A stretch of DNA of 64,000 bases from an uncultured Candidatus Saccharibacteria bacterium (GCA_964599405.1 CAZRED010000001.1:75528-139527), one strand, 5' to 3'; counted from the stretch's first letter, positions 19,730-46,005 are shown. The notes: generated by a model from the letters alone, not told the origin. Translations and numbers: made by a program.

Positions 19730-19802
19730 AGGCCTGTAGCTCAGCGGTAGAGCAGGTGCCTTTTAAGCACTGTGCGGCGGGTTCGACTCCCGCCAGGCCT
19801 AC
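19730..19802 (+). tRNA. tRNA-Lys(UUU)
   Basis: AGGCCTG acceptor, D-arm GCTCAGCGGTAGAGC, anticodon loop CTTTTAA, T-arm GCGGGTTCGACTCCCGC. Confidence 0.8.
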
Positions 19803-19836: not shown

Positions 19837-19932
19837 TGTATGTCTTGGGAGCGAACCAGCCGGCTTTGCCGGCTCGGTTAGATAGCGAGCGTAACGAAGT
19901 GAAGCGAGCTATACCGCAGCGAAGCGGAGGGT

Positions 19933-19949
19933 ACTCCCGCCAGGCCTAC
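19933..19949 (+). repeat. direct repeat of tRNA-Lys 3' end (copy 2)
   Basis: ACTCCCGCCAGGCCTAC is identical to tRNA 19786-19802; followed by CACCCTCCGC. Confidence 0.7.
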
Positions 19950-20032
19950 CACCCTCCGCTAAAGCTTCGGCTGGCAAGCCGATAGCGATACAATAGCGGT
20001 GCAACCCGTAGCTTTATGCGAAGGGTTGAAAA

Positions 20033-20269
20033 ATGTATTACGTCTATTTGTTAAAGCTGAAAAACGATAGTTATTACACTGGTATAACCAAGGACTTAAA
20101 GAATAGAGTTAAGAAACACAATAAGGGCGATGTTTTTACTACTAAGAGTAAACGTCCAGTTGAATTGGTTTTTTACTGTGCTTTTCCTTCCAAAAGCCGC
20201 GCAGCTAATTTTGAAGCGTATTTAAAGACTGGCTCCGGCCAGGCGTTTCGCAACCGCCATTTTCTGTGA
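20033..20269 (+). CDS. GIY-YIG nuclease-superfamily protein (UPF0213/YhbQ-like)
   Basis: MYYVYLLKLKNDSYYTGITKDLKNRVKKHN GIY-YIG motif. Confidence 0.7.
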   Translation: MYYVYLLKLKNDSYYTGITKDLKNRVKKHNKGDVFTTKSKRPVELVFYCAFPSKSRAANFEAYLKTGSGQAFRNRHFL

Positions 20270-20281
20270 CGAAGCGCCGAC

Positions 20282-20298
20282 GACTCCCGCCAGGCCTA
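20282..20298 (+). repeat. direct repeat of tRNA-Lys 3' end (copy 3)
   Basis: ACTCCCGCCAGGCCTAC followed by GACCCTCCGCC. Confidence 0.7.
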
Positions 20299-20319
20299 CG
20301 ACCCTCCGCCTTTTCCACC

Positions 20320-21600: not shown

Positions 21601-22656
21601 ATGAGTGATGCCGTCGCCCTCGTCAAAGATCCAGTTGAGTCTGCTAAAGAAGCGGGTCTGCGTTATTTTTCCGACAATAAACTAACGATTAGCCGCGTCA
21701 AACACGGCGACGGGTTCCGCTACATTAGTAAAGACGAGGAACCGATCAGTGACGTCGACACCATTACTCGCATTAAATCCTTGGTCCTGCCGCCGGCTTG
21801 GGTAGAAGTGAAAATATCGCCAGTCGATAACAGCCACCTGCAAGCAGTGGGTATCGACGAAAAAGGCCGCAAGCAATACCGCTACCACCCGGAGTGGCTG
21901 AAGTTCCGCGACCAAACCAAGTACGACAAATTGATTGATTTCGGCAAAGCCCTGCCGAAAATCCGCACCCAAGTTTCCGTTGATATGTCTAAACAAGGCT
22001 TACCGCGCGAGAAAGTATTAGCAGCAATAGTCAAAATGCTGGAGAAAACGATGATTCGCATCGGTAATGAACAGTACGCCAAAGAAAACAAATCCTACGG
22101 CCTAACTACCCTCCAAAACCGCCATGTTGACGTTGGAACCGAGAAAGTCACCATCAATTTCAAGGGCAAAAGCGGCCAGTTTCACACTATTGAGTTGGAA
22201 GACCGCCGGCTGGCCCGGCTGATTGGCAAACTCCAGGATTTACCCGGTCAAGATTTGTTCCAGTTTATTGATGACAACGACAACCTCCATGGCATCGACT
22301 CGGCTGACGTTAACGAATACATCCAAGAAGCCGCTAACGATGAGTTTACCGCCAAAGATTTCCGGACTTGGCGTGGCACGGTCTTGGCCGCCTGGTTTCT
22401 GGCTGACTGCGAGCGCGCCAAAACCCAAAAGGAAAACAAAAAACTCGTCACCCAAATAGTTAAAGAAGTTGCCGCCGAACTAGGTAATACGCCAACAGTT
22501 TGCCGCAAGTGCTATATCCACCCGACTGTCATTGACAGCTTCCTGGCCGAATCCGGTATGACTATTAAAGCCATCAACACCATAGAAGTGGACACGGTTG
22601 ATTTACTGCCGGAAGAAAAAGTCGTTCTGGAATTCCTGAAACAAAACACCGCCTAA
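21601..22656 (+). CDS. DNA topoisomerase IB (poxvirus-like bacterial TopIB)
   Basis: RYFSDNK...GFRY...LPPAWVEVKISP...GRKQYRYHPEW; 351 aa. Confidence 0.75.
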   Translation: MSDAVALVKDPVESAKEAGLRYFSDNKLTISRVKHGDGFRYISKDEEPISDVDTITRIKSLVLPPAWVEVKISPVDNSHLQAVGIDEKGRKQYRYHPEWLKFRDQTKYDKLIDFGKALPKIRTQVSVDMSKQGLPREKVLAAIVKMLEKTMIRIGNEQYAKENKSYGLTTLQNRHVDVGTEKVTINFKGKSGQFHTIELEDRRLARLIGKLQDLPGQDLFQFIDDNDNLHGIDSADVNEYIQEAANDEFTAKDFRTWRGTVLAAWFLADCERAKTQKENKKLVTQIVKEVAAELGNTPTVCRKCYIHPTVIDSFLAESGMTIKAINTIEVDTVDLLPEEKVVLEFLKQNTA

Positions 22657-22736: not shown

Positions 22737-22768
22737 GAACAAATATACGTTTAAACATATATTTGTTC
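22737..22768. promoter_or_regulatory. 32-bp near-perfect palindrome with core ATATACGTTTAAACATATAT
   Basis: GAACAAATATACGTTTAAACATATATTTGTTC; the same core recurs at 45539-45558 and 32446-32465. Confidence 0.6.
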
Positions 22769-23486: not shown

Positions 23487-24092
23487 TTAGCGCAGGTTTT
23501 TGAGTTGTTCGTAGAGATCGCGTTCGGCACGGGAGAGGTGGTGGGGGATTTCAATAGCGATTACAACAGTTAAATCCCCTCGGCCGCGGCGGGTTTGCTG
23601 GCCTTTGCCGCGAAAACGGAAACCTTCGCCGGTTTGGACTCCGGCGGGGATTTTTAGCTCTATTTCGTCGCCAAATTGGGTTTTAAATTTTACCGTGTCC
23701 CCTAAAACGGCCTGGGGGATAGAGATCGAAATCTGCACTTGGACGTTGGCAAAGGCGCTTTCAAATAAATCTTCAAAAATTGAGCCAAATCCACCGCCGC
23801 CGGAACTGCGGAAACCGCCGAAACCGGAAAATCCGTCAAAGCCACCAGCCGCTCCCCCACTCTGCCCCCCACCAAAACCGCTACGGGTTCCGGCATGACC
23901 AAACTGGTCGTATGAGGCGCGTTTCTGGGCATTGCCTAAAACCTGGTAGGCCTCGTTAATTTCTTGGAATTTGGCCTTATCTCCCCCCTTGTCCGGGTGG
24001 AGTTTGTGAGCCATTTTTCGGTAGGCCTTTTTGATGTCAGCTTCGGTCGCTTTTTTATCGACGCCCAAAACCTCGTAGTAATCTCGTGCCAT
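23487..24092 (-). CDS. dnaJ: J-domain co-chaperone, DnaJ-like without zinc-finger domain
   Basis: DYYEVLGV...HPDK J-domain, G/F-rich region, C-terminal DnaJ-C fragment. No CxxCxGxG repeats; 201 aa. Confidence 0.8.
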
Positions 24093-26042: not shown

Positions 26043-26696
26043 TCAGAAGGAATCAAAACCAAGCTTCTTGAGCTTTTCTTCCGAATCGCTGACACCCGCA
26101 GCCTTCAAGAATACGACCGCATTGTCGTAGGCCTGGAAGTAGAACTTGGGTGTGTTCGTAAACTCCCACTTGTTCTTCCTCCCAGCAATCTGCCGGTAGC
26201 CAATCAGGTGCCCGTAGGTCGCCGACGTTCCGGGTGGAGATAGCTCCACACATGCCTCGCGAAGCTTGGTGATCTCGATGAAAGAGAGACCCTCCTTGAG
26301 AACGATCCCTTTCTCTTCAAGCAATCCGTATATAGCTTTTCGTGAGGCCGGGCTTAGGCCGGGTAGCCTATCGATATCGTCCTTACGACACCTTGCCAGC
26401 TCTGACAGTTTATTCACGCCCAGTTCGACCAGCGGCTTCCATGCCCGTTCTGGCAGACCAGCGGCGCTCAGCACTTCGTCTTCGGCTATCGCCGTAGACT
26501 CTGGGATAGTCGTCTTTTCCGGCGGCGGCACTCCTTTGCACCGGCTAATGATAGATTGTAGCTCGTCCTGTCGGTCTTCCAGCCATTTGATGGTCTTGTC
26601 TAGGTCGCTACGCACCGTTTTGAAATCGAGGATCATCTGGCGATTCAGTTCCCAAGTGTCCGAAGCTATCATGCGTACTTCTTCATCTCTATCCAT
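26043..26696 (-). CDS. helix-hairpin-helix protein with RNAP alpha-CTD-like domain
   Basis: Start MDRDEEVRMIAS with GGAGG 9 nt upstream. VNKLSELARCRKDDIDRLPGLSPASRKAIYGLLEEKGIVL resembles the alpha-CTD HhH. Confidence 0.5.
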   Translation of the reverse strand: MDRDEEVRMIASDTWELNRQMILDFKTVRSDLDKTIKWLEDRQDELQSIISRCKGVPPPEKTTIPESTAIAEDEVLSAAGLPERAWKPLVELGVNKLSELARCRKDDIDRLPGLSPASRKAIYGLLEEKGIVLKEGLSFIEITKLREACVELSPPGTSATYGHLIGYRQIAGRKNKWEFTNTPKFYFQAYDNAVVFLKAAGVSDSEEKLKKLGFDSF

Positions 26697-26697
26697 G

Positions 26698-26760
26698 CTT
26701 AAAGAACCTCCATAAGGGTTGTACGAGCATCGTACTGGAAAATTTTTGCCAGGCAAGGAT
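26698..26760 (-). promoter_or_regulatory. palindrome GTACGAgcaTCGTAC upstream of 26043..26696
   Basis: Perfect 6-bp arms at about 26725-26739. Confidence 0.35.
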
Positions 26761-26853
26761 GGAGCTGGGATTTTTGCCTGTGTGAAACACAATTAGTAAT
26801 AAAAGGGCGCGGATTGGCCGAAGCCGCACCGCGCAATTGTTTGATATTGTCTG

Positions 26854-27498
26854 TTACTCCGGGACGCCCATGGCCAACCGCTGATCAGCGCAGCTCATGG
26901 TGCCGAAAGGAACACGCTTGAAGATCCAGCTCCCCAGCTTGCGAAGCGCCTCCCTGTCCAGATCGCTGATGAGGTCGCCCTTCTTGTCGCTTAAGGAGCG
27001 GGCTTGATGCCTGAGATCGCCTTTAGCGGCCCAGAGGCCAGGGAGATACCAGATCTCCCAGTATTGACCATTGTCGGCCCTTCTTGATCGAAGGCAGACG
27101 AATCCCCAGGATTCCAGCATTGAACAGGCCTCGGCGTATTTCCTCTCTGTCCAATAGTAACCGCAGAGGGACTGGATCATGATGGATGGAGAAGCGTGCT
27201 TGTTCTCCTTGTCAGGACAGACAAACCATGCCTCTTTTGGCTCGCCTGTCTCCTTCCAGTGCGGACCAACCAGCGGGTCGGCCTGGGGAGTGGGCATTGG
27301 CTCGGTTAGCTCGCGCCTGACAAGGCGTCCCTCAACGCAGTCGACACGACACTGTCCAGCGAGCATCGCTTCCAGCATGTCTAGCTCGTTACTGAGCAGA
27401 TTGCCTAGACCCAGCTCACCATCGTTGTCCACTGAAGGCTTCCTACGGGTTACGCGGATTTCTTTCATAAATACCTCAAAGATCGAAGATGGGAACAT
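26854..27498 (-). CDS. hypothetical protein (island gene)
   Basis: W/Y/C-rich; start uncertain (MFPSSIF or MKEIRV); no motif. Confidence 0.45.
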   Translation of the reverse strand: MFPSSIFEVFMKEIRVTRRKPSVDNDGELGLGNLLSNELDMLEAMLAGQCRVDCVEGRLVRRELTEPMPTPQADPLVGPHWKETGEPKEAWFVCPDKENKHASPSIMIQSLCGYYWTERKYAEACSMLESWGFVCLRSRRADNGQYWEIWYLPGLWAAKGDLRHQARSLSDKKGDLISDLDREALRKLGSWIFKRVPFGTMSCADQRLAMGVPE

Positions 27499-27569
27499 TC
27501 TATCAGATGTATCTAGAAAATCCAACGAGTAAATCCCGCTTTTACCTGTGGAAAAGTCAACGAACGGTA

Positions 27570-27600
27570 TAGAAAAAGCGGCGGGTTTCCCCGCCGCCAG
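27570..27600 (-). terminator. rho-independent terminator for 27625..28290
   Basis: Minus strand GGCGGCGGGgaaaCCCGCCGC then TTTTTCT. Confidence 0.75.
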
Positions 27601-27624
27601 TACATTGTTCGCTTAGGACTCGAA

Positions 27625-28290
27625 CTACTCCGCTTTGCGCATGACGACCATGTCGCAAGGGACTTTGATCCCAGTCCTCGATCCCTGCCAGCCGTCACCG
27701 CTCCAGATCGTTTCACCTTCCCAGTGGTGGTTGGGCACGTAGCAAGTGAAGCCTTCGCGGTGGTCATAGACAGCTACTCTCTGGTGAATGCTGCCCGACC
27801 ACTGGTCGGCCATCGCTTGGGGAACGCCGTCGTAGGTGACGACGATGCCCTTCTGGCAAAGTTGTCCGAGTGTGTTGAGCAGACGTTTCAGCCGCTCTGG
27901 CGAGAAGTAATACGTCACGCTGATCAGGACTGCCCAATCAACTCGACTTCCTTCCGCCAACATCGAAACACAGACATCGTCAGCTGGGCCATGATAGTAG
28001 CGGGCGTAAAATCCCCGTCCCATTGTCCAGCGCAGGTTGTTGGCCGAGATGTCGTTGGCGTAACGCTCGCCGTGGCGAGCATGTGCGCAGAGAATGTCGG
28101 CGACCACTCCTGTGGCTGAGCCAATATCTAAAACCGTATCTTGGGCACCGATGAACGGCACCGCCTTGTCTTCGAAGACTTGGTGGAGGTTCACCTTGGC
28201 CAGCTGCAAACGCTGGCAGTACTCCCTGGGGTCATTGTGAAGTGCGAGGACCGCTTGGTCCTCCATATTGAGGGGCCATCCGGTTACCAT
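27625..28290 (-). CDS. class I SAM-dependent methyltransferase (substrate unknown)
   Basis: VLDIGSATGVVADIL motif I; start moved to MVTGWPLNMEDQ directly after the promoter. Confidence 0.6.
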   Translation of the reverse strand: MVTGWPLNMEDQAVLALHNDPREYCQRLQLAKVNLHQVFEDKAVPFIGAQDTVLDIGSATGVVADILCAHARHGERYANDISANNLRWTMGRGFYARYYHGPADDVCVSMLAEGSRVDWAVLISVTYYFSPERLKRLLNTLGQLCQKGIVVTYDGVPQAMADQWSGSIHQRVAVYDHREGFTCYVPNHHWEGETIWSGDGWQGSRTGIKVPCDMVVMRKAE

Positions 28291-28326
28291 GTTGCGATTT
28301 ATACCACATTTCTCGAGAAAAGTCAA
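28288..28326 (-). promoter_or_regulatory. leaderless promoter cassette TTGACT-17-TATAAA-7 nt-ATG with XhoI-centred palindrome
   Basis: Minus strand: TTGACT (plus 28321-28326), TATAAA (plus 28298-28303), ATG at 28290. Palindrome TTTCTCGAGAAA. Confidence 0.6.
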
Positions 28327-28403
28327 GTATTAAAGCCGCAATTTCGCCAATGGAAAATCCAGCAAGAGTGACGGGGTAGCGGAAAATAATAATCACTGTT
28401 ACG

Positions 28404-28901
28404 TTGCGGTTAATGCCACAGAAGCTCGATCAATACCGCGACCCAATCCTGGCTACCAATGAAAAAGTGATCGGTTTTTACGAGCGCGAATTTTATGTTT
28501 TTTCTAATTTCTCTAGTTTCCAGGTGGAGTGGCGGGGACGGCTTTGGCCAACGTCTGAACACGCTTTCCAGGCCGCCCATTTTTTCGACACTGCGCCGGA
28601 GCTGGTTGAACAAATTTTTAATGCCCGTTCCGCCCACGATGCTTTTAAAATCGCTAAAGCCAACGGCGACAAAGCGCCGAAGAATTGGGAAGAAATCAAA
28701 GTTGGGATTATGGAAGATATCTGCCGCCACAAACTCCTGCAACACCCTTACGTCGAAAAGAAGCTCCGCCAAACCAAAGACTGGCCGCTCGTGGAAGACT
28801 CGCCGAGCGATCCTTGCTGGGGTTGGGGTAAAGACCGGAAAGGCCGTAACGAACTCGGCAAGGTTTGGATGCGTCTGCGCGACGAACTCAATAAAAAGTA
28901 A
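28404..28901 (+). CDS. NADAR-domain protein (YbiA/DUF1768-like)
   Basis: FYVFSNFS...WPTSEHAFQAAHFFD NADAR signature; 165 aa. Confidence 0.65.
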   Translation: MRLMPQKLDQYRDPILATNEKVIGFYEREFYVFSNFSSFQVEWRGRLWPTSEHAFQAAHFFDTAPELVEQIFNARSAHDAFKIAKANGDKAPKNWEEIKVGIMEDICRHKLLQHPYVEKKLRQTKDWPLVEDSPSDPCWGWGKDRKGRNELGKVWMRLRDELNKK

Positions 28902-28933
28902 TTTCCAGCGGGTGGATACAATAAGGTGGCGAA

Positions 28934-29341
28934 CTAGCTTTTAGAGTGATGTTCCAACCAGCTGGCAATTTCTGGTAGTGCTACTTGTTTGCTTGCTACT
29001 TTCATCACAAATTGTTCTGCTTCTTGATTGGAAGCTGTCAGCTTAAAACCGTTGATAAATAAAAACCGAGCAACGCTAGCCAAGCCGGTGCGTTTATTGC
29101 CGTCAACGAAGATTTGATACGCCGCAAAACTTTCCAGATAGGTCGCGGCTTTGAGAAAAACTGTCGGGAATTGTTCTTCACCAAATACCGCTGACTTTGG
29201 TCTTTCGGCAGTTGATAGAAATAAGTTCATATCACGGACACCATGAGATCCACCAACTTTTTCGATGATTTGGTGATGGATATACAATATCTCCTCGCCA
29301 GTCAGATAGCGCGCCTGGCGATTACTTTTTGGCAAGCTCAT
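28934..29341 (-). CDS. doc: Doc/Fic-family toxin
   Basis: FVDGNKRTG Fic/Doc motif; start moved to MSLPKSNRQARYL (ORF-track N-extension unlikely). Confidence 0.7.
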   Translation of the reverse strand: MSLPKSNRQARYLTGEEILYIHHQIIEKVGGSHGVRDMNLFLSTAERPKSAVFGEEQFPTVFLKAATYLESFAAYQIFVDGNKRTGLASVARFLFINGFKLTASNQEAEQFVMKVASKQVALPEIASWLEHHSKS

Positions 29342-29531
29342 CAAGTGCCGGTCGGTACTGGTCAATGAACTTATTTGTCCACTCGTGTAGCTCTGGGCTA
29401 ATGACAGTTTTGGCTGGTTTTTTGACGATAACCTCAACCTGGTCGCCCACGGTGACGTTCAGTTTTTTCAGCTCGCTTTTAGGAATAATTACTCCTGTTG
29501 AACTGCCGATCTTGATCAGTTTTTGAGTCAT
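29322..29531 (-). CDS. AbrB/MazE-fold antitoxin (Phd-like partner of Doc)
   Basis: MTQKLIKIGSSTGVIIPKSELKKLNVTVGD; 20-nt overlap with doc. Confidence 0.65.
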   Translation of the reverse strand: MTQKLIKIGSSTGVIIPKSELKKLNVTVGDQVEVIVKKPAKTVISPELHEWTNKFIDQYRPALDELAKK

Positions 29532-29565
29532 GTTTCGATTATAACTTTATAATAATAATCGTCAA
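29529..29565 (-). promoter_or_regulatory. leaderless promoter TTGACG-16-TATAAT-6 nt-ATG for the antitoxin gene
   Basis: Minus strand: TTGACG (plus 29560-29565), TATAAT (plus 29538-29543), ATG at 29531. Confidence 0.55.
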
Positions 29566-29666
29566 TGTGAAAAACTTCCGGCGGGTGGGGTTGAGGTGGA
29601 GGGGTTCATTTTTCGCTGTTTTTCGGTTATACTCTTCGCAACGCACTTTCAATTGGTAAAAAACAA

Positions 29667-30284
29667 ATGGACAGAAAATTCACTCAGACCGAGCTTGAAG
29701 AAGCTTTTCCGGTTTTATTCGGAGAAGTGACGAAGACATTTCACAACAACGCCCAGATCGACAACTGGCCACGCGCTCTGTGGCTGTTTTCATCTATAAT
29801 GATGTTCGCCGCATTTCTCATCTACTTGACTATAGTGCTTACGAAGCCGAATGCGGATATTTGGGATGTTGTCTTGGTTAATGGCACAGGCATTCTCACT
29901 GTATCCAGCTTCTTTTTGTTTCTGTTTGGTGACGAGGACACATCCAGTAAGCACTACCTGGAGCGGAAATACTTGCACCTGGTTGAAGACACCGAAGCAT
30001 ATGATCTTCTTCTGGAAGCGTTGAACAATCGGAAGAAAGGGGTTGTGAGGGGACTTGGTGGCAAGAAGAAAACGGAAGAATATCTGCGCAAGCTCTGGAT
30101 TACGGCGTTCGATGAGGCTAGGTTGCTGGTAGCGGAGCCAATCCTGGGTAAACCCGCAGAACAGCCGATTGCCGATCGCGTCAGGGAGCATCTCCAGCTA
30201 CACGACCAAGCACGCGAACAAGCGATAGACGAGGTTTACAACCGCTCACCGGAGGTTACCGATGACCTGCACCAACAGAACTAG
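29667..30284 (+). CDS. two-TM membrane protein with charged C-terminal domain
   Basis: 205 aa. Confidence 0.5.
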   Translation: MDRKFTQTELEEAFPVLFGEVTKTFHNNAQIDNWPRALWLFSSIMMFAAFLIYLTIVLTKPNADIWDVVLVNGTGILTVSSFFLFLFGDEDTSSKHYLERKYLHLVEDTEAYDLLLEALNNRKKGVVRGLGGKKKTEEYLRKLWITAFDEARLLVAEPILGKPAEQPIADRVREHLQLHDQAREQAIDEVYNRSPEVTDDLHQQN

Positions 30285-30401
30285 ACCTGGACCGCACGAC
30301 CTGAAAAGGTACGGCGGTTTTTTTCTTTTGCCTGTGGAAAAGCCCGCCCTGAGCTTGTCGAAGGGTCAACGGCCAGCGGGTGGGTTCATTATAAAATGTT
30401 T

Positions 30402-30432
30402 AGAGCCGCCCCATCGGGGCGGCTCTGTTTTG
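30402..30432 (+). terminator. rho-independent terminator
   Basis: AGAGCCGCCCCatcGGGGCGGCTCT then GTTTT. Confidence 0.8.
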
Positions 30433-30480
30433 CGCAGGATATTCACATAGGTTTGGATGTAAGCACGGGATCTATCGAGC

Positions 30481-31449
30481 TTAAACGGCTACCTCCTGGA
30501 AATCATGACAGGCAAAGACCTGTGTCTCGCCGTCACGGTTCAGGCAGGTGTCTTGAGCGCAATTTCGAGCGTCGCTCTCAATCGCCTCAATCATCTCGTC
30601 GGTGGCTCGCGGGTCGTGGTGCGTCAGTCCTAAGACTTTCGCTCCAATCTCGCAAGCTGTCCGAACACAGTAGTCTGGTGTGCCATGCCCATAGCCGGCT
30701 GTCTTGGTATTGTAGGTTTCGCGGTCGTACTGCGAATCCATCACCAAGAAATCGGCCTCCTTGAGGTGTGACTTCATTCGGGCAGGCATTTGGTCAAGAT
30801 TCTCGTGATCGGTTAGAAAAACGAAAACCTTACCTGTTGGTCGCTCTTCAAAACGATACGAAATCGTCCGTTCCGGGTGATTGGTGTAGTACATTCGCAC
30901 CACCAAACACTCGGAGATGTTGTAGTGGCCCCCTCTGATCTTGATTTGGCTCGGGGTCTTTCCCTGAACGCCATCAAGCTCCTCAATTGCCACTTTCTTC
31001 ATACCGCCCTCCGGGTGGAACACCAGGACAACAGCAGATGGAACTGTGATTCGGATCGGCCGAAATCGCTGCGCGATTTCGGTGAAGTTGACTGGGTGAA
31101 ACGGGGTGCGCATAACGTACTCGAAAGCCTTGCGAGGATCGTAACCCTCCTCGACCGGTCCGTAGACGTTAAAGCGCATCGATGGCGAGTAGATTGCTGG
31201 ACACAGCAGGAGCCCTTGAGTGTGATCGTGATGATAGTGAGTCATCAACAGATGTGTCTCGGTGATCTTTTCCTTAAGCAGCTGGTCTCCGAGTGGAAAC
31301 AAGCCGCTACCGGCATCAATCACGAGGGCGTTGTCCAGCGGTAGACATTGCGACTCAACCCGCAAGCAGGTGGTGTTACCACCGTACTTGAGAAAGTCTT
31401 GGCCGCTAACGGGGATTGAACCCCTGGTTCCGTAGAAGGTGATCTTCAT
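30481..31449 (-). CDS. MBL-fold metallo-hydrolase
   Basis: THYHHDH metal-binding motif; 322 aa; GGAG SD. Confidence 0.7.
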   Translation of the reverse strand: MKITFYGTRGSIPVSGQDFLKYGGNTTCLRVESQCLPLDNALVIDAGSGLFPLGDQLLKEKITETHLLMTHYHHDHTQGLLLCPAIYSPSMRFNVYGPVEEGYDPRKAFEYVMRTPFHPVNFTEIAQRFRPIRITVPSAVVLVFHPEGGMKKVAIEELDGVQGKTPSQIKIRGGHYNISECLVVRMYYTNHPERTISYRFEERPTGKVFVFLTDHENLDQMPARMKSHLKEADFLVMDSQYDRETYNTKTAGYGHGTPDYCVRTACEIGAKVLGLTHHDPRATDEMIEAIESDARNCAQDTCLNRDGETQVFACHDFQEVAV

Positions 31450-31582
31450 GGTTTTCTCCGTCGCGTCTTACAGCAACCAAAGAGCCATGTGAAGGTGCGC
31501 AATTCGCCGCAAGTATATACCTTAAAAACAGGAATAACTATGAAAACTTACAAAAATAACGACGGGTGGGGTTGAAGTATAG

Positions 31583-31610
31583 AAAAAGCGGCGGGGAAAA
31601 CCCGCCGCAA
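31583..31610 (-). terminator. rho-independent terminator for 31630..32016
   Basis: Minus strand GCGGCGGGttttCCCCGCCGC then TTTTTCT. Confidence 0.75.
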
Positions 31611-31629
31611 TTCGAATGCTGCCTGCAGT

Positions 31630-32016
31630 TCAGTCCAGAAGCCTGAACTCGACGTCAAAGTCGTGCCGAACACTCCCCACGAACCCGACCAGCTTGAGTT
31701 TCCCGTCTGCATCCAGCCGTATGCGCATGGATGTTAGCTTGTCGTCAAACTCCTTTCCCACTGACATGAGCGGTTCGGTAACAGGTGTGATGGTGACGAA
31801 GTGGGGCCTGTCCTCATCAGGAGGATTGGCGGAAACAGACGCGATCGTTCCATAGAGCTCACACGGCAGATGGGTTCTTGGCTTTCCGTATCTGTTGTAT
31901 ATCTCCATGTGGAACTTTTTGCCGATTAGATCCTCAGGCATCAGACCGTCAAACTTGTCAGAAACAAGCTTTCTAGTCAGAGCCACCGATCCTTTATCAG
32001 AAAGTACGCTGAGCAT
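31630..32016 (-). CDS. hypothetical protein (island gene)
   Basis: Start moved to MLSVLSDKGS; the ORF-track TTG start coincides with the -35 TTGACT. Confidence 0.5.
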   Translation of the reverse strand: MLSVLSDKGSVALTRKLVSDKFDGLMPEDLIGKKFHMEIYNRYGKPRTHLPCELYGTIASVSANPPDEDRPHFVTITPVTEPLMSVGKEFDDKLTSMRIRLDADGKLKLVGFVGSVRHDFDVEFRLLD

Positions 32017-32052
32017 ACTGCGAAATATATTACTTTTCTCGAGAAAAGTCAA
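32014..32052 (-). promoter_or_regulatory. second copy of leaderless promoter cassette TTGACT-17-TATATT-7 nt-ATG with XhoI-centred palindrome
   Basis: Minus strand: TTGACT (plus 32047-32052), TATATT (plus 32024-32029), ATG at 32016. Near-identical to 28288-28326. Confidence 0.6.
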
Positions 32053-32096
32053 GGGTTAGAACCGCAATTTTGCCTGTGGAAAAGTCGTTGTCTAAC

Positions 32097-32126
32097 CTTG
32101 ACTTTTTCTTGGTTTACAGGTATAAT
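32097..32126 (+). promoter_or_regulatory. sigma70-like promoter TTGACT-17-TATAAT for 32142..32375
   Basis: cTTGACTttttcttggtttacaggTATAAT. Confidence 0.65.
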
Positions 32127-32141
32127 TCTCTCGTCACTTAG

Positions 32142-32375
32142 GTGGCTGGAGGAAGTGTGAGAACCCTAACAATCATCGCGTCGCACGACGAACAAACCGA
32201 GTACTTGCACAACGTCTTAAAAGAAGGCGGCTGCAATACCTTTCCGGAATACGAGGGTGAATGTCCAAGCTGCAAAAACATCCTCAGATCCAACCTTACT
32301 GAAGTTAACTGCCCTGGTTTTGGTTGCGATGGTCTTGAGCCAGTCAGACTGGAACACAAACACAGATTCGGCTAG
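32142..32375 (+). CDS. small zinc-ribbon protein
   Basis: 77 aa, GTG start; CPSC...CPGFGC. Confidence 0.45.
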   Translation: MAGGSVRTLTIIASHDEQTEYLHNVLKEGGCNTFPEYEGECPSCKNILRSNLTEVNCPGFGCDGLEPVRLEHKHRFG

Positions 32376-32445: not shown

Positions 32446-32465
32446 ATATACGTTAAAACATATAC
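32446..32465. promoter_or_regulatory. variant copy of ATATACGTTTAAACATATAT palindrome
   Basis: ATATACGTTAAAACATATAC. Confidence 0.45.
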
Positions 32466-32525
32466 GAGGGGTTAGAAGATAAAGTAAAAACCGTGAATGA
32501 CCCATACGCCCGGGTTGTTCGTCTT

Positions 32526-33305: not shown

Positions 33306-33484
33306 CGCCCCTCCTCCATTTATTTAACGATACCGCAATCCGCCAACGCAACAAGCAATATCAAACCAAACGCTAGGCAGGGAGTGGAATTTCTCTTTAG
33401 TTAGTTGGTTAGTTCGGGTTTTTCTTCTATGTGTTTGTCAGTAGTCATTATGGTGTTCTAGCAGTATTAGCGAAGCGTCAGAGT

Positions 33485-34000
33485 TAGAAAGTTAGTTATA
33501 TATTTATAAAGAACTCCCCTTTTTCCATTTCCATACCTTAAAGATAGTCATATTTTGGTGCAACTGCTGCACCAGTTCAAAGCCGGGGTTACAAAGCTTA
33601 GTTATATATTTATAGAGACTCCACTTTGGCGATTGTACTTACCTGTTAGAGCGATCTTTTTTGTCTCAGCTGCTGAGACGTTTTGTTAGATGAAACTAAT
33701 GAGTACTAAGTGGTGTAGATATGTATAGAAAGTGTAGTGATTTTTATTGATGAAGCTGTGAATGTCTTGGAAGTGGTATCAGGCCGGATGTTTCTTAGTA
33801 TATATATTAATAAAGACTCTACTTTTTCTTTCAGTTAACCAGGAAATTGAACGAATTTAGGAGCAACAGCTGCTCTTTTTGGGTAGCGAAGCCGAACATT
33901 AGCAGGGGGTCAGTAATATATATAAAGAGTAGTGAATTTTGTTTACTAAACCTGCAAAGATCGGCTTTTCGGTATCAGGCCTGATACCGGTGTCTCCAGG
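33485..34000 (+). repeat. tandem array of 5 degenerate ~105-bp units, each with AT-rich TATAAAG box and downstream hairpin
   Basis: TATA(A/G)AG boxes at 33505, 33611, 33723, 33809, 33921. Hairpins 50-52 nt downstream: GGTGCAactgcTGCACC (33557), GTCTCAGCtgcTGAGAC+GTTTTG (33663), GAGCAacagcTGCTC+TTTTTG (33859), GGTATCAGGccTGATACC (33972). Confidence 0.6.
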
Positions 34001-34153
34001 TAATTAATTGGCGTGCAGTGACGGTATACTTACGAAATAAATCGCTACTCCAACCGCCGCCAGAATTATCGCTACCCACCAAACTGGATTCATGGTTTTA
34101 GTTTAGCAAAAACGGTAGTACCCAACGAATAATCGCTTGTATAGTGGAAGAGT

Positions 34154-37899: not shown

Positions 37900-38983
37900 T
37901 TTGTGTCCTTTTCCTTTGCTTAATTATTATTCTTGCGTATGTCGCTTTGCCGTTGATGATAGCGCCTACATATTTTTTATGCTGTTCATCAAGATATGTT
38001 GGATTCCCTTGTATTAACGAGTCTGACTTCTCTCTCTTGTCTGCAAATAAGCCAATAATTTCAAACTGTTGGGGGTTATATTTATCTAGAAAAGTAATCG
38101 GAACACCCATTGCACCATTCCAATCCATAGGTACGTCTGCAAACTTAGAAACCTCTATCGCATCATAATTGTCGTATTTTGGATATTCTTCAGGCGTGTA
38201 TTTTTTATACAAGTCTACCTCCTCGTGACGCTTGGTGGTGTCAAGGTTTGTGAACCATACTATGCTTCCCATACTGATGTATTTGATGCCATTCTCGATT
38301 TTCTTTCTTGATTCGGTCGGGATATCGTAATCATCAGGAACTTGGAACCACTTTGTGCCACCATTATCATATCCAAGCCACATTTTATTTTCTTTAATAA
38401 GTTTGAAGGTCTCTTTATACGTGATGGCATTCTGGTTACCAAGAATCAAAAACTTTTTATCATATTCCATAAGCTGCGCCACATACTCGCGAAACAATGA
38501 AAACGGCGGGTTTGTCACTACGATATCGGCTTCTTTGAGCAGCTCTATACACTCATGACTTCTAAAATCACCGTTGCCTTGTAAGGACGATGAAGTATTT
38601 TTAGTGTGCTTTATAAGATTCTGAACATCACCCAAATCTACAGCGCCATCACCATCACTGTCAGGCACTTCGTTTACTTCGACTTTAAATGGTTGCTTAC
38701 CATCTGGCTTTAGACCCTCCATCTCGAAGATTGGCAACTGCGTTCCAGCAATAGGCGATTTAGTGTAGCTGGTGGCGATAAGTTTTTTTAAGCCCAAATG
38801 GTTAAAGCTGCTCGCAAAATACTTGAAAAAATTACTCTCATACGGATCGTCACAATTACAAAAAACAACCTTGCTGCGGAATTGATCTTTGTATCGCGTT
38901 AACTCTTTTTCGATATCAGCACGTTGTGTGTAAAACTCGTCCTTTTTCTGCAACTTTGCTGTATGTAAATTATTCTGCGCCAT
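37889..38983 (-). CDS. N6-adenine DNA methyltransferase (NPPF motif)
   Basis: IVVTNPPFSLF motif IV; 364 aa; TAATG coupling with upstream small ORF. Confidence 0.7.
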   Translation of the reverse strand: MAQNNLHTAKLQKKDEFYTQRADIEKELTRYKDQFRSKVVFCNCDDPYESNFFKYFASSFNHLGLKKLIATSYTKSPIAGTQLPIFEMEGLKPDGKQPFKVEVNEVPDSDGDGAVDLGDVQNLIKHTKNTSSSLQGNGDFRSHECIELLKEADIVVTNPPFSLFREYVAQLMEYDKKFLILGNQNAITYKETFKLIKENKMWLGYDNGGTKWFQVPDDYDIPTESRKKIENGIKYISMGSIVWFTNLDTTKRHEEVDLYKKYTPEEYPKYDNYDAIEVSKFADVPMDWNGAMGVPITFLDKYNPQQFEIIGLFADKREKSDSLIQGNPTYLDEQHKKYVGAIINGKATYARIIIKQRKRTQNEN

Positions 38984-39252
38984 TAAATTAGCCGGGTGTT
39001 TTTGAGCTTTGCTAGGTAGCTAAAGTCATCTTCTGATATTTTGGGCACAACATTGAACGTTATTTTCGTTTTTGATGTGTCGCTTATTGCACCGCCTAAT
39101 ACTACAAAGTATTTTATCTCTCCCTTAGCTTCTTTTGTTGATTCAACTTCTACCTCAACTTTTATCGCACCCCAAACTACACCGTTCTTAAGATTATTGA
39201 TAAGTTCGTTGGTGAGATTCTCAATGTAAGATGAAAGCTCAACTTTCTCCAT
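38983..39252 (-). CDS. small operon-leading protein of unknown function
   Basis: 89 aa; its stop overlaps the MTase start (TAATG). Confidence 0.45.
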   Translation of the reverse strand: MEKVELSSYIENLTNELINNLKNGVVWGAIKVEVEVESTKEAKGEIKYFVVLGGAISDTSKTKITFNVVPKISEDDFSYLAKLKNTRLI

Positions 39253-39289
39253 TTGCCAAATTCTACTCTTTTTAACCTGAAAAAGCCAG

Positions 39290-39330
39290 GTTTGGGGAAC
39301 AACCCACCCCGGGTGGGTTGTTCAGGGGCT
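39290..39330 (-). terminator. tandem hairpins between HEPN-like gene and defense operon (attenuator/terminator)
   Basis: CAACCCACCccgGGTGGGTTG and AACCTGgctttttCAGGTT. Confidence 0.4.
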
Positions 39331-40142: not shown

Positions 40143-40162
40143 AAAGAGAGCTGGTTAGCTCT
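40143..40162 (-). terminator. weak hairpin overlapping dnaK stop (partial terminator, read-through likely)
   Basis: AGAGAGCTggttAGCTCTCT followed on the minus strand by TTCTCTT then ATG of the HEPN-like gene. Confidence 0.35.
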
Positions 40163-43384: not shown

Positions 43385-43486
43385 AAAAACAATCCAGCCC
43401 TCGAGGGCATTGTATATGTTCTAACATATATTCTAATTTGAACGGATTTTGCGGTTTTAAGCACAGTATATTAAGGTAGTTCAGTA

Positions 43487-45530: not shown

Positions 45531-45568
45531 TTGCATCCGTATACGTTTAAACATATATTGTGCCCATG
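45531..45568 (+). promoter_or_regulatory. promoter TTGCAT-17-TATATT-6 nt-ATG overlapped by palindrome ATATACGTTTAAACATATAT
   Basis: TTGCAT 45531-45536, TATATT 45554-45559, ATG 45566; palindrome 45539-45558. Confidence 0.55.
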
Positions 45569-45922
45569 GCGCGGAGAAAATCTGTTCAGATAGGTGAGGG
45601 TGAGAAATTTGAAACTGTCCGGGTGGGCGGGCCTAAAAAATACTTCAACAAAATCGTCAAACGAGTGGGCTGGGGAAAAACCAAGTATTCTTATATTTCC
45701 ATCTCCGCACCGTGGTATAAAGCCGCCATCAACGAAGTAAGATCCGCCCGGCACAAAAAGCGCATATCGCAAAAACAATTGGCAACATTGTTGGGATCAA
45801 CCCAATCGGAAATATCGCGTTTTGAAAATGGCAAGAGCAACCCGACAGTAGAGTTTTTGGACCGGTTGATGGCAACGTTGGATTTGGAGCTGAAAATCTG
45901 GGCCAAAAAGCCCAAGAAGTGA
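45560..45922 (+). CDS. XRE-family HTH transcriptional regulator
   Basis: ISQKQLATLLGSTQSEISRFENGKSNPTVEFLDRL HTH_XRE. Confidence 0.65.
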   Translation: MPMARRKSVQIGEGEKFETVRVGGPKKYFNKIVKRVGWGKTKYSYISISAPWYKAAINEVRSARHKKRISQKQLATLLGSTQSEISRFENGKSNPTVEFLDRLMATLDLELKIWAKKPKK

Positions 45923-46005
45923 ATATATACTAGAACATATACGGTGACCTAGAAAAACTGGATATTGTTTTGTTTATTGGTATCAGAGAGTAAAATTGAG
46001 TAACT

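What the first reader, a model, noticed from the sequence alone, without database searches (positions are those of the whole stretch)
26771..32086. Island-specific recurring box TTTT(G/A)CCTGTGGAAAAG(T/C)C (5 copies)
Copies are found at 26771-26788 (variant), 27545-27558, 28336-28360 (diverged), 30326-30343 and 32068-32086. All lie in intergenic DNA of the left half of the island, in both orientations, usually 30-80 bp from promoters or terminators. None were noticed outside the island in this window. The pattern is consistent with an operator for an island-encoded or island-targeting regulator. Alternatively it could be a small mobile-element-derived repeat.
Basis: seen in the sequence. Interest (0 to 1): 0.55.

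Follow-up and report, generated by a model that had tools for sequence, protein, structure and literature searches.

The report
Conserved DnaA-box-like promoter-upstream element
A 17-19 bp DNA box that recurs five times between genes of a variable region in an uncultured Patescibacteria genome is a real, evolutionarily conserved protein-binding-type site. It sits about 60 bp upstream of four predicted promoters, contains a perfect DnaA box, and also occurs in a related genome and in small phage-like contigs, so it is not a private operator of this island.

Summary
The box is real. There are three near-identical copies (27540, 30326, 32068; at most 1 mismatch to TTTTGCCTGTGGAAAAGTC) and two diverged ones (26772, 28342). 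All are intergenic, and none occurs elsewhere in the 64 kb window.

Read on the minus strand (GACTTTTCCACAGGCAAAA), the box sits 14-15 nt upstream of the -35 hexamer of four predicted sigma70-type promoters (genes A, B, C, I). Its centre is at about -59/-60. The fifth copy abuts a terminator.

The core TTTTCCACA is a perfect DnaA box (TTWTNCACA). The box is not island-private:
- A distant relative (L197) carries it at 18/19 identity, flanking the orthologous NADAR gene between dnaK and dnaJ.
- The exact 17-mer occurs as doublets in the single non-coding, origin-like region of small phage-like contigs.
- Relatives of those contigs have arrays of DnaA-type boxes at the same place.

Best reading: an upstream regulatory binding site for a factor that is not island cargo, with DnaA the leading candidate.

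Rivals are an operator for the neighbouring RNA-polymerase-alphaCTD-like protein A, an att-like cassette boundary, and a DnaA-titration locus. A mobile-element or MITE origin is not supported.

Interest is moderate: a new member of a known kind.

The parts
26772..26790 (-). Variant box (minus strand GTGTTTCACACAGGCAAAA). It lies 15 nt upstream of the -35 of the gene A promoter, centred at about -59.
   Evidence: It has 4 mismatches but shares the 11-mer TTTTGCCTGTG. Its downstream flank CAGCTCC resembles the flanks of the L197 boxes.
27540..27558 (-). Strict box (GACTTTTCCACAGGTAAAA). It follows the gene C terminator and lies 14 nt upstream of the -35 of the gene B promoter, centred at about -59.
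   Evidence: The terminator-plus-box module is homologous to L197 3037-3082.
28342..28360 (-). Diverged box (GGATTTTCCATTGGCGAAA). It lies 15 nt upstream of the -35 of the gene C promoter (about -60), in the divergent intergenic region between C and NADAR.
   Evidence: Its position is orthologous to L197 box 2, upstream of NADAR.
30326..30344 (-). Strict box (GGCTTTTCCACAGGCAAAA). This is the orphan copy: it directly abuts the T-run of the gene G terminator and no promoter follows it.
32068..32086 (-). Strict box (GACTTTTCCACAGGCAAAA) between divergent promoters. It lies 15 nt from the -35 of promoter I (about -60) and 11 nt from the -35 of promoter J (about -56).
26729..26756 (-). Predicted promoter of gene A (TTGCCT-16-TACGAT).
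   Evidence: Read from the sequence; geometry. There is no transcription-start data.
27497..27525 (-). Predicted promoter of gene B (TTGGAT-17-TAGAAT).
28298..28326 (-). Predicted promoter of gene C (TTGACT-17-TATAAA). The palindrome TTTCTCGAGAAA lies in its spacer, and the ATG follows 7 nt after the -10 (leaderless).
32024..32052 (-). Predicted promoter of gene I (TTGACT-17-TATATT). The perfect palindrome CTTTTCTCGAGAAAAG lies in its spacer, and the start is leaderless.
32098..32126 (+). Predicted promoter of gene J (TTGACT-17-TATAAT), divergent from promoter I.
29566..29574 (-). A further perfect DnaA-type 9-mer (TTTTTCACA), abutting the -35 (29560-29565) of the AbrB/Doc operon promoter.
26043..26696 (-). 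Gene A: a coiled coil, an RNA-polymerase-alphaCTD-like domain and an unknown C-terminal domain. It is a possible box-binding or box-modulating protein and is conserved next to dnaJ in the clade.
27577..27598 (-). Terminator hairpin of gene C (GGCGGCGGGGAAACCCGCCGC followed by TTTTTCTATAC), the first part of the terminator-box module.
   Evidence: It is 97% identical to L196 1917-1950 and also matches L197.

Best explanation
The box is a conserved protein-binding site of about 17-19 bp. Its invariant core, read on the minus strand, is CTTTTCCACAGGYAAAA.

In this genome it sits at a fixed upstream position, centred at about -59/-60 and 14-15 nt before the -35 hexamer. This holds for four predicted sigma70-type promoters on the minus strand: gene A, gene B, the methyltransferase C and gene I. 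Two of the copies also lie between divergent promoters (NADAR gene D, and gene J).

I infer that a trans-acting factor binds the box. From this class-I-type position it would modulate RNA polymerase recruitment, so that these otherwise unrelated genes in the dnaK-dnaJ variable region are co-regulated.

The factor is probably not island cargo. The leading candidate is the replication initiator DnaA. The 5' half of the box is a perfect DnaA box (TTTTCCACA), and the 3' half (GGYAAAA) places an A-tract at about -55 to -49, where an RNA polymerase alpha-CTD could dock.

Shown: the copies, their significance, their orientation, their geometry relative to consensus promoters, their conservation in L197 and in phage-like contigs, and the DnaA-box match.

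Inferred: that the promoters are real, that a protein binds, that it is DnaA, and the direction of regulation.
For: 1. There are three copies with an identical 17-mer and unrelated flanks. This never occurred in 100 shuffles or 200 simulations.

2. The geometry is constant. The gap from box to -35 is 15, 14, 15 and 15 nt, and the box centre is at -59 or -60. This holds for promoters that are partly non-homologous (promoters I, J and F-E were also found by the mechanical scan).

3. The box is conserved across deep divergence. L197 is a relative whose A protein is only 33-36% identical and whose dnaK is about 75% identical at nucleotide level. It has GACTTTTCCACAGGCAAAT (18/19) and GACTTCCCCACAGGCAAAT flanking the orthologous NADAR gene.

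4. In phage-like contigs whose shared protein is only 38% identical, the box is 100% conserved. It occurs as a doublet in the only large non-coding region (L162/L190 and L176).

5. TTTTCCACA fits the DnaA-box consensus TTWTNCACA.
- It is the species DnaA box used for cyanobacteria in Ori-Finder studies (PMC4674748, PMC2275245).
- TTTTCCACAGG sits at the DnaA-box insert position in a primer for a synthetic E. coli promoter from a library built by inserting DnaA boxes (PMC12626423).

6. The close relative L189 has, at the same place, the arrays ATTTCCACAGG and ATATTCACAGG, plus inverted ATTTGCACAG and ATTTCCACAGG. The variation falls mainly at the degenerate DnaA-box positions 3 and 5 (the first base is A rather than T), while CACA is invariant.

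7. L190 shows box-box, then an AT-rich stretch, then inverted boxes, which is an origin-like layout. The relative L193, which encodes a protein-primed DNA polymerase, has no boxes.

8. Of 7 perfect TTWTNCACA 9-mers in the 64 kb window, 4 lie in intergenic DNA of the island's left half, all on the minus strand. One of them abuts the -35 of the AbrB/Doc promoter.

9. The box does not fold better than shuffled sequence, so a DNA-level protein site is more likely than a structural element.
Against: - There are no transcription-start data and no binding data. The promoters are consensus predictions only.
- One strict copy (30326) and L197 box 1 have no promoter downstream. Both lie next to terminators in convergent intergenic regions.
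- In L197 the box upstream of the A homolog is about 58 nt from the -35 rather than 15 nt, so the -60 geometry is not conserved.
- Invariance over 17 bp is longer than the 9-bp DnaA box explains.
- The diverged copy 28342 has lost the critical CACA (it reads CATT).
- No dnaA gene and no DnaA-box cluster lie in the window, so this organism's own DnaA-box preference is unknown.
- The genome-wide frequency in the host could not be measured. The genome scan was saturated by chance hits, and only about 4 kb beyond the window was retrieved and checked only for perfect DnaA-type 9-mers (none).
- In the phage-like contigs the boxes are not at -60 of a recognisable promoter.
Confidence: 0.5

Rival explanations
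1. The box is the operator for the neighbouring alphaCTD-like protein A (26043-26696). A dimerises through its N-terminal coiled coil and binds the two A/T tracts of the quasi-dyad CTTTTnC-N4-GnAAAAG. It thereby regulates its own promoter and the promoters of its neighbours.
For: - The structural model of A (pLDDT 82) has a long N-terminal helix, a domain with the RNA polymerase alpha-CTD fold (Foldseek 1z3e_B TMt 0.84, 1doq 0.80), and sequence matches to alpha-CTD.
- A's own promoter carries a variant box.
- In L197 a box lies in the divergent intergenic region between NADAR and the A homolog.
- In L196 the A homolog is preceded by four iterons, TTATCTnnnCGAAA(A)C, of similar layout. This could be a co-evolved operator.
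- The box has partial dyad symmetry, with 6 of 9 symmetric pairs (read from the sequence).
Against: - The A family is fast-evolving (33-46% identity), yet the box is 18/19 identical between this genome and L197. L196, whose A is the most similar, has no box.
- L199 has an A homolog but no box.
- The phage-like contigs with exact boxes encode no A homolog.
- The residues equivalent to the alpha-CTD DNA-binding determinants (R265, K298) are not conserved across the family (read from the alignment).
Confidence: 0.17
2. The box is the core of a site-specific recombination (att-like) site. Single-gene or few-gene cassettes were inserted at it into the dnaK-dnaJ hot spot, and each insertion duplicated the core. 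The phage-like elements carry the same core as their attachment site.
For: - The boxes are direct repeats in one orientation that bound small gene units: B, C, D-G and H-I.
- In L197 two boxes exactly flank the NADAR gene.
- The dnaK-dnaJ gap varies in content among relatives. It is about 16 kb here and about 4 kb in L197, with different genes in L187 and L188.
- Homology between the strict copies stops at the box edges.
- The same core occurs in phage-like contigs.
Against: - No integrase or recombinase was recognised among the roughly 46 window ORFs scanned (19-48 kb) or in the phage-like contigs. The only candidate enzyme is a type IB topoisomerase at 21601-22656.
- The constant 14-15 nt distance to four -35 hexamers is not predicted by this model.
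- The phage-like contigs carry two copies 60-80 nt apart next to further DnaA-type boxes, unlike a typical attP.
- The cargo genes have their own promoters and mixed orientations, unlike integron cassettes.
Confidence: 0.1
3. The boxes are DnaA-binding sites that serve replication control rather than transcription. They would form a dispersed DnaA-titration or DnaA-inactivation locus, like E. coli datA or the B. subtilis DnaA-box clusters, or they would be part of an origin-proximal region.
For: - There are perfect DnaA boxes in intergenic DNA.
- The cumulative GC-skew minimum and the switch of gene orientation (minus strand below about 15 kb, plus strand above about 43 kb) fall at the island, even when the island is removed. 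This is the signature of an origin neighbourhood.
- The phage contexts look like DnaA-dependent origins.
Against: - The boxes are 0.8-2.8 kb apart, not clustered, and no AT-rich unwinding element adjoins them.
- The region is variable among relatives, and L187 and L188 have no boxes. That is unexpected for a core replication-control locus.
- The fixed promoter geometry would be a coincidence.
Confidence: 0.1
4. The box is a non-functional relic: left-over sequence of duplicated promoter modules, or the remnant of a small mobile element (MITE).
For: - Copies 28342 and 32068 lie in a 77-nt duplicated promoter segment.
- Several copies share about 12 nt of extra downstream similarity with the L197 boxes.
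Against: - The 17-mer is invariant in copies whose flanks are unrelated.
- It is 18/19 identical in L197 and 100% identical in phage-like contigs whose proteins are 38% identical.
- There are no inverted terminal repeats, target-site duplications or transposase.
- In the 77-nt repeat the box is no better conserved than its flanks, but that holds only in that one copy.
Confidence: 0.03

Closest known systems
DnaA boxes at DnaA-regulated promoters and non-origin DnaA-box clusters (E. coli dnaA/nrdAB promoters and datA; B. subtilis sda and the six DnaA-box clusters). Named from established knowledge, not tested here.
   Same: - The 9-mer TTTTCCACA fits TTWTNCACA.
- The boxes are intergenic and next to promoters.
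- They occur as several copies outside an origin.
- The same box type is found in origin-like regions of phage-like elements.
   Different: - The invariant stretch is 17 bp, not 9.
- The copies are single and 0.8-2.8 kb apart rather than clustered.
- The position is a constant -60.
- The host is a Patescibacteria genome whose DnaA-box preference is unknown.
Class I activator sites (for example CRP at -61.5 of lac), which work through the RNA polymerase alpha C-terminal domain.
   Same: - The box centre is at -59/-60, on a fixed helical face, upstream of sigma70-type -35/-10 promoters.
- The site is partly dyad-symmetric and of operator length.
   Different: - The sequence is unrelated to the CRP/FNR consensus.
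- No cognate activator has been identified.
- No transcription data exist.
Shared activator sites between phages and their satellites or host islands (P2 Ogr / P4 Delta sites at about -55 of late promoters).
   Same: The same short upstream element is found both in phage genomes and at several chromosomal-island promoters, at about -55 to -60.
   Different: - The sequence does not fit TGT-N12-ACA.
- The island has no satellite hallmarks (no integrase, primase or capsid-redirecting genes).
- In the phage-like contigs the box is not at -55 of a recognisable promoter.
Iterons and DnaA boxes of plasmid and phage replication origins.
   Same: In the phage-like contigs, directly repeated boxes flank an AT-rich stretch in the only large non-coding region.
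   Different: In the island the copies are dispersed among genes, with no Rep gene and no AT-rich element adjacent.

Membership tests
DnaA box | The 9-mer matches TTWTNCACA. | tested here: met
   Three copies are perfect (TTTTCCACA). Copy 26772 has one mismatch (TGTTTCACA or TTTCACACA). Copy 28342 has two (TTTTCCATT).
DnaA box | The site is bound by DnaA domain IV. | not testable with these tools
   This needs EMSA or footprinting.
DnaA box | The same box type is used at the organism's own oriC, next to dnaA/dnaN. | not testable with these tools
   No dnaA gene and no DnaA-box cluster lie in the window. The rest of the genome could not be fetched.
DnaA box | Related sites tolerate variation mainly at positions 3 and 5, while CACA is fixed. 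| tested here: inconclusive
   This is met in the phage-like arrays (L189, L182, L176). In the island, however, 17 bp are invariant, and the diverged copy 28342 has lost CACA.
Upstream (class I type) transcription-factor site / operator | A fixed position relative to the core promoter. | tested here: met
   The gap to the -35 is 14-15 nt in 4 of 5 copies, with the centre at -59/-60. The promoters are predicted, not mapped.
Upstream (class I type) transcription-factor site / operator | A cognate regulator is identified, or co-varies with the site. | tested here: inconclusive
   Gene A (alphaCTD-like) is adjacent, but the family and the box do not co-occur consistently. The XRE gene has a different operator-like palindrome.
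UP element | An A/T-rich tract between -38 and -59, contacted by alpha-CTD. | tested here: not met
   The box spans about -69 to -51 and has a G+C-rich centre (CCACAGG). Only its 3' A-tract falls in the UP zone.
MITE / IS-derived repeat | Terminal inverted repeats, target-site duplication, and a repeated unit longer than the box. | tested here: not met
   Homology is confined to 17-19 nt in the strict copies. All copies share one orientation, and no inverted partners exist.
Integron attC / cassette array | An integrase nearby, 57-141 bp imperfect palindromic sites, and promoterless co-oriented cassettes. | tested here: not met
   No integrase was found by Pfam. The site is 19 bp and does not fold. 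The genes have their own promoters and mixed orientation.
Origin iterons | Tandem repeats within a few hundred bp, next to a Rep gene and an AT-rich element. | tested here: not met
   Island spacing is 768-2786 bp. This is partly met in the phage-like contigs only.
Intrinsic terminator / structured element | A stable hairpin, better than shuffled sequence. | tested here: not met
   Free energy is -1.2 to -2.9 kcal/mol, with z-scores of -1.2 to +0.6.

The most novel reading that the evidence does not exclude
The island promoters carry the same high-affinity box that small phages of this host use in their DnaA-dependent origins.

A replicating phage would multiply those boxes and titrate the shared factor (DnaA) away from the island promoters. 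This would switch the expression of the toxin-antitoxin, NADAR, methyltransferase and other genes in the dnaK-dnaJ defence hot spot. The effect is an infection sensor based on competition for binding sites.

The clade-specific free-standing alpha-CTD paralog (protein A) would act as the adaptor or decoy between the bound factor and RNA polymerase.
Probability: 0.08. Interest if true: 0.8.

Novelty: new member of a known kind. Interest (0 to 1): 0.45.

Why it matters
Almost nothing is known about transcription control in Patescibacteria (CPR), which cannot be grown alone.

- **A testable cis element.** This is a sharply defined 17-bp element with fixed promoter geometry. It is conserved between distant clade members and shared with phage-like elements. 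A 40-bp probe and purified DnaA or protein A would be enough to test it.
- **If DnaA binds.** That would link expression of a variable, defence-rich region to the replication initiator. It would also give the first hint of this lineage's DnaA-box preference.
- **If protein A binds.** That would define a new type of regulator built on a free-standing RNA polymerase alpha-CTD domain.
- **Even in the ordinary reading.** The work corrects the finding: the box is neither island-private nor in both orientations.

Tried and rejected
- **Viral-collection scans.** These used the 17-mer, a box doublet, and proteins I, B, the phage holin-like protein and the A family. Only distant B homologs turned up, in 66-470 kb viral contigs, and none had a box.
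- **BLAST of the island and of the phage non-coding region and capsid-size protein against cultured phages.** No match.
- **Hairpin or terminator reading of the box.** Rejected.
- **MITE and integron readings.** Rejected (see the membership tests).
- **UP-element reading.** Rejected on position and composition.
- **Comparison by eye with remembered consensus sequences of other binding sites.** No convincing match to parS, CRP/FNR, sigma54, ECF -35, IHF, Rex or dif. These are memory-based and not formal tests.
- **Rfam.** Only tRNAs were found in the window.
- **oriC in the window.** GC skew and gene orientation suggest an origin neighbourhood, but no DnaA-box cluster or dnaA gene was found.
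- **Extending the host sequence through edge genes.** Only about 4 kb was gained.
- **A weak tblastn match between protein A and an L182 phage protein (E = 0.007).** I judged it to be coiled-coil noise.
- **PHROGs, NCBIfam and PDB sequence searches of genes B, G, I and J.** Nothing usable.

Full report
**1. Observation**

The pattern TTTTRCCTGTGGAAAAGY has three exact matches, at 27540, 30326 and 32068. Shuffled sequence gives a mean of 0.38 matches, and none of 100 shuffles reaches three. A Hamming scan with the 19-mer TTTTGCCTGTGGAAAAGTC adds 26772 (4 mismatches) and 28342 (5 mismatches). Nothing else in the 64 kb window scores at <=4 mismatches.

In 200 first-order Markov simulations the counts compare as follows:

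| Mismatches allowed | Observed | Simulated mean |
|---|---|---|
| <=1 | 3 | 0 |
| <=4 | 4 | 0.3 |
| <=5 | 7 | 2.7 |

So copy 28342 is not significant on sequence alone. It is supported by context, because it lies in a 77-nt repeat (28281-28357 vs 32007-32083, 78% identity) in register with copy 32068.

All five copies are intergenic. The strict copies share only the box, and their flanks are unrelated.

**2. Setting**

The organism is a Patescibacteria (CPR) bacterium. Its DnaK falls in a 90%-identity cluster with a protein that NCBI names as Patescibacteria. The source is a 326-kb NCBI contig plus Logan contigs of run SRR6868922.

The 'island' fills the gap between dnaJ (23487-24092) and dnaK (40155-42107). 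Its contents are:
- an M23 peptidase;
- gene A;
- gene B;
- a SAM-dependent methyltransferase (C);
- a NADAR gene (D);
- a Doc/AbrB toxin-antitoxin pair (E and F);
- a membrane protein (G);
- a metallo-beta-lactamase-fold protein (H);
- small genes I and J;
- a heliorhodopsin;
- a low-G+C block of restriction-modification, DndB-like and GmrSD-like genes.

Relatives show that this gap is variable.
- L187 and L188 have dnaK 81-82% identical at nucleotide level. They carry other genes downstream of dnaK and no box.
- In L197 the gap is only about 4 kb. It contains NADAR (85% amino-acid identity), an A homolog and the 75-aa gene next to dnaJ.

NADAR, gene A and the 75-aa gene are therefore clade genes. 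B, C, E-J and the restriction block are insertions.

**3. Anatomy relative to transcription signals**

Read on the minus strand, the box is GACTTTTCCACAGGCAAAA. Four copies are followed by a -35-like hexamer and then a -10 hexamer:

| Gene | -35 | Spacer (nt) | -10 | Gap from box to -35 (nt) | Box centre |
|---|---|---|---|---|---|
| A | TTGCCT | 16 | TACGAT | 15 | -59 |
| B | TTGGAT | 17 | TAGAAT | 14 | -59 |
| C | TTGACT | 17 | TATAAA | 15 | -60 |
| I | TTGACT | 17 | TATATT | 15 | -60 |

The box centre assumes a transcription start 7 nt after the -10. The mechanical scan independently finds promoters I, J and F-E. C and I appear leaderless, with the ATG 7 nt after the -10.

Copies 28342 and 32068 lie between divergent promoters (C/D and I/J). 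Copies 26772 and 27540 follow the terminators of the upstream genes. Copy 30326 abuts the T-run of the gene G terminator and has no promoter behind it. These promoters are predictions, and no transcription-start data exist.

The box does not fold better than shuffled sequence.

**4. What the sequence resembles**

TTTTCCACA is a perfect match to the DnaA-box consensus TTWTNCACA. Two lines of literature support this reading:
- It is the species-specific DnaA box used for cyanobacteria in Ori-Finder work (PMC4674748, PMC2275245).
- TTTTCCACAGG sits at the DnaA-box insert position in a primer for a synthetic E. coli promoter, from a library built by inserting DnaA boxes (PMC12626423).

The window holds 7 perfect TTWTNCACA 9-mers. 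Four lie in intergenic DNA of the left half of the island, all on the minus strand. These are the three strict boxes plus TTTTTCACA, which abuts the -35 of the AbrB/Doc promoter.

The box is also a partial dyad, CTTTTnC-N4-GnAAAAG, with 6 of 9 symmetric pairs (read from the sequence).

**5. The box outside this genome**

A metagenome scan with GRCTTTTCCACAGGYAAAAK returned 33 loci. Most are single hits inside long open frames, which is the chance background. A few are not, and these fall into four groups.

*Phage-like contigs with doublets.* L176 and L162 carry the box twice, 60-80 nt apart, in non-coding DNA. L162 is part of the 9.1-kb contig L190. Fetching relatives through a shared holin-like protein showed a group of 9-11 kb phage-like genomes. 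They encode a packaging ATPase, a lytic transglycosylase and an M15 peptidase, and L190 has an Arc-like repressor.

L162 and L176 share only 38% identity in the holin-like protein, yet the boxes are 100% conserved.

*Layout in L190.* The only large non-coding region (2600-3251) reads as follows:
- promoter TTGACA-17-TATATA;
- box;
- box;
- about 100 nt of AT-rich DNA;
- two inverted TCCACAG boxes;
- a poly-C tract;
- the first gene.

*Variation in related phage-like contigs.*
- L189, the close relative of L176, has at that place ATTTCCACAGG and ATATTCACAGGTAAAAA, plus inverted ATTTGCACAG and ATTTCCACAGG. The variation falls mainly at the degenerate DnaA-box positions (the first base is A rather than T), while CACA stays fixed.
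- L193 encodes a protein-primed DNA polymerase and has no such boxes.
- L182 and L173, another small phage-like pair, have three tandem boxes. The last is GACTTTTCCACAGGTAAAAT, 5-6 nt upstream of a TTGACA.
- L168 has another doublet.

I infer that in these elements the boxes are DnaA boxes of an origin or early-control region. None of them encodes a homolog of any island protein.

*The box in the clade.* Gene A has only three relatives among 1.8 billion representative proteins (confirmed). All lie next to dnaJ.
- L197 (A 33-36% identical by method) has two boxes in one orientation flanking NADAR. GACTTTTCCACAGGCAAAT sits directly after a terminator and TTTTTCTATAT, a module homologous to window 27541-27585. 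GACTTCCCCACAGGCAAAT lies in the NADAR/A divergent intergenic region, orthologous in position to copy 28342.
- L196 (A 46% identical) has the same terminator (97% to window 27566-27599). It is followed not by a box but by four iterons, TTATCTnnnCGAAA(A)C.
- L199 has neither.

Conservation at 18/19 positions, at a divergence where protein A is about 35% identical, implies purifying selection on the box.

**6. Protein A**

Sequence search of solved structures hits RNA polymerase alpha C-terminal domains (1iw7_A, E = 0.007).

An AlphaFold model built from the four-member alignment has a mean pLDDT of 82. It shows a long N-terminal helix (residues 3-53), a linker, a compact domain (about 75-130) and a C-terminal domain. 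Foldseek matches the middle domain to alpha-CTD structures, including 1z3e_B (TMt 0.84, rmsd 1.2), 1doq (0.80) and 1lb2.

This is a free-standing alpha-CTD paralog. It keeps A in play as a DNA-binding or adaptor protein. Against A as the sole binder:
- the inconsistent co-occurrence of A and the box;
- the phage copies of the box;
- the fast evolution of the A family.

**7. The XRE regulator**

The XRE gene lies outside the island, at 45566-45922 on the plus strand, and is conserved in L187 and L188.

A different palindrome, TATACGTTTAAACATATA, overlaps the spacer and -10 of its own predicted promoter. It recurs at 22744, 32447, 43413 (the grpE/comEC intergenic region) and 45923. That palindrome, not the box, is the likely XRE operator.

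**8. Mechanism**

Shown so far: a 17-bp invariant element, with fixed geometry at four predicted promoters, conserved in a distant relative and in phage-like elements, containing a perfect DnaA box.

Inferred:
- A trans-acting protein that is not island cargo binds the box. From about -60 it modulates RNA polymerase, as a class-I-type site does.
- DnaA is the best candidate, at roughly 0.3 overall.
- The 3' half, GGYAAAA, would place an A-tract at about -55 to -49, where an alpha-CTD (or protein A) could dock next to the bound factor. This would explain why more than 9 bp are conserved.

The direction of regulation is unknown. The promoter-less copies (30326 and L197 box 1) sit beside terminators in convergent intergenic regions. 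They may be relics or roadblock/insulator sites. DnaA-box complexes are reported to block transcribing polymerase in E. coli; this is from memory and was not tested here.

**9. Rivals**

| Rival | Probability |
|---|---|
| Operator for protein A | 0.17 |
| att-like cassette boundary | 0.10 |
| DnaA-titration or origin-proximal locus | 0.10 |
| Relic or MITE | 0.03 |

- The att-like reading is supported by direct repeats bounding gene units, by NADAR being exactly flanked in L197, and by the variable hot spot. It is weakened by the absence of any recombinase and by the constant distance to the -35.
- The titration reading is supported by the GC-skew minimum and the gene-strand switch at the island. 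It is weakened by the dispersion of the boxes and by the variability of the region.

**10. Limits**

- The host's genome-wide frequency of the box remains untested beyond the 64 kb window. The extra ~4 kb retrieved was checked only for perfect DnaA-type 9-mers.
- No binding or expression data exist.
- The hosts of the phage-like contigs are unknown.

**11. Verdict**

This is a real, conserved cis element of the transcription-factor or DnaA-box kind. It is a new member of a known kind and of moderate interest. The 'island-specific operator' interpretation is only partly right, and the mobile-element alternative is wrong.

Noticed in passing
window 28905-28915, 29578-29588, 30373-30383, 31560-31569 (+ strand); L197 about 2470 and about 3690: A second recurring intergenic motif, CCAGCGGGTGG(G). 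It occurs four times in the same part of the island, always on the + strand. CCAGCGG also recurs in L197 intergenic regions between a box and a promoter. It may be half of the clade's usual CCCACCC-GGGTGGG terminator hairpin, or a separate site.
   Followed up: partly
window 32032-32049 and 28306-28323; L197 2390-2551: The perfect 18-bp palindrome ACTTTTCTCGAGAAAAGT lies in the -35/-10 spacer of promoter I. A one-pair variant lies in promoter C, inside the 77-nt duplicated promoter. An L197 promoter has ATCCTCGAGGA at the same place. This looks like a repressor operator distinct from the box, and the small zinc-ribbon-like gene J (32142-32375) is divergent from it.
   Followed up: partly
window 22744-22763, 32447-32466, 43413-43432, 45540-45559, 45923-45954: There are five copies of the AT-rich palindrome TATACGTTTAAACATATA(T). 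One overlaps the spacer and -10 of the conserved XRE-family gene (45566-45922, +). Another lies in the grpE/comEC divergent intergenic region. It is the likely XRE operator and possibly controls the chaperone operon.
   Followed up: partly
window 26043-26696 (-); L196 2148-2816; L197 3758-4384; L199 1723-2514: Protein A is a free-standing paralog of the RNA polymerase alpha C-terminal domain, with an N-terminal coiled coil and an unknown C-terminal domain. Only four family members were found among 1.8 billion representative proteins, and all lie next to dnaJ.
   Followed up: yes
window 1-64000, minimum at about 24-40 kb: The cumulative GC skew reaches its minimum at the island, even when the island is removed. 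Genes switch from mostly minus strand (below 15 kb) to mostly plus strand (above 43 kb). This is the signature of a replication-origin neighbourhood, yet no dnaA gene and no DnaA-box cluster lie in the window.
   Followed up: partly
window 19730-19802, 19920-19959, 20270-20309, 20033-20269; L196 5137-5585: tRNA-Lys is followed by two extra copies of its 3' end (ACTCCCGCCAGGCCTAC) bracketing a GIY-YIG ORF. L196 has three similar fragments next to its tRNA. These are remnants of repeated integration, or a homing-endonuclease-associated duplication.
   Followed up: no
window 33306-34153: An 850-bp AT-rich stretch with no ORF lies between the heliorhodopsin and DndB-like genes. It has four dispersed copies of TCTTTATAAATATATAACTAA (minus strand) and no Rfam match.
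   Followed up: no
window 39250-39325; L187 8208-8251 and 9244-9306; L188 6420-6460: A terminator hairpin (GAACAACCCACCC/GGGTGGGTTGTTC) plus a leaderless promoter module is conserved among relatives and repeated between their variable genes. Its spacer dyad CTTTTTCAGGTTAAAAAG resembles the box in layout (14 of 20 ungapped).
   Followed up: partly
window genes C (28290), I (32016), F (29531), 38983-39252, XRE (45566): Several genes start 6-7 nt after a good -10 hexamer and have no Shine-Dalgarno sequence, so they are probably leaderless mRNAs. Genes A and B have leaders with GGAGG or GAGG.
   Followed up: no
L196 1952-2045: Four tandem iterons, TTATCTnnnCGAAA(A)C, with a period of about 20-30 nt. 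They lie between a terminator that is 97% identical to window 27566-27599 and the A homolog, which is where this genome has a box.
   Followed up: partly
L189 (8738 nt), L190 (9087 nt), L193 (10943 nt), L176, L162, L182, L173: A group of 9-11 kb phage-like contigs with a packaging ATPase, a lytic transglycosylase and an M15 peptidase. They have no match among cultured phages or in IMG/VR. The polymerase-less members carry poly-C tracts and DnaA-box arrays in their single non-coding region. The member with a protein-primed polymerase lacks them.
   Followed up: partly
window 26854-27468 (gene B); L150-L153: Gene B has 31-37% identical homologs in 66-470 kb contigs of the viral collection, and no box lies near them.
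   Followed up: partly
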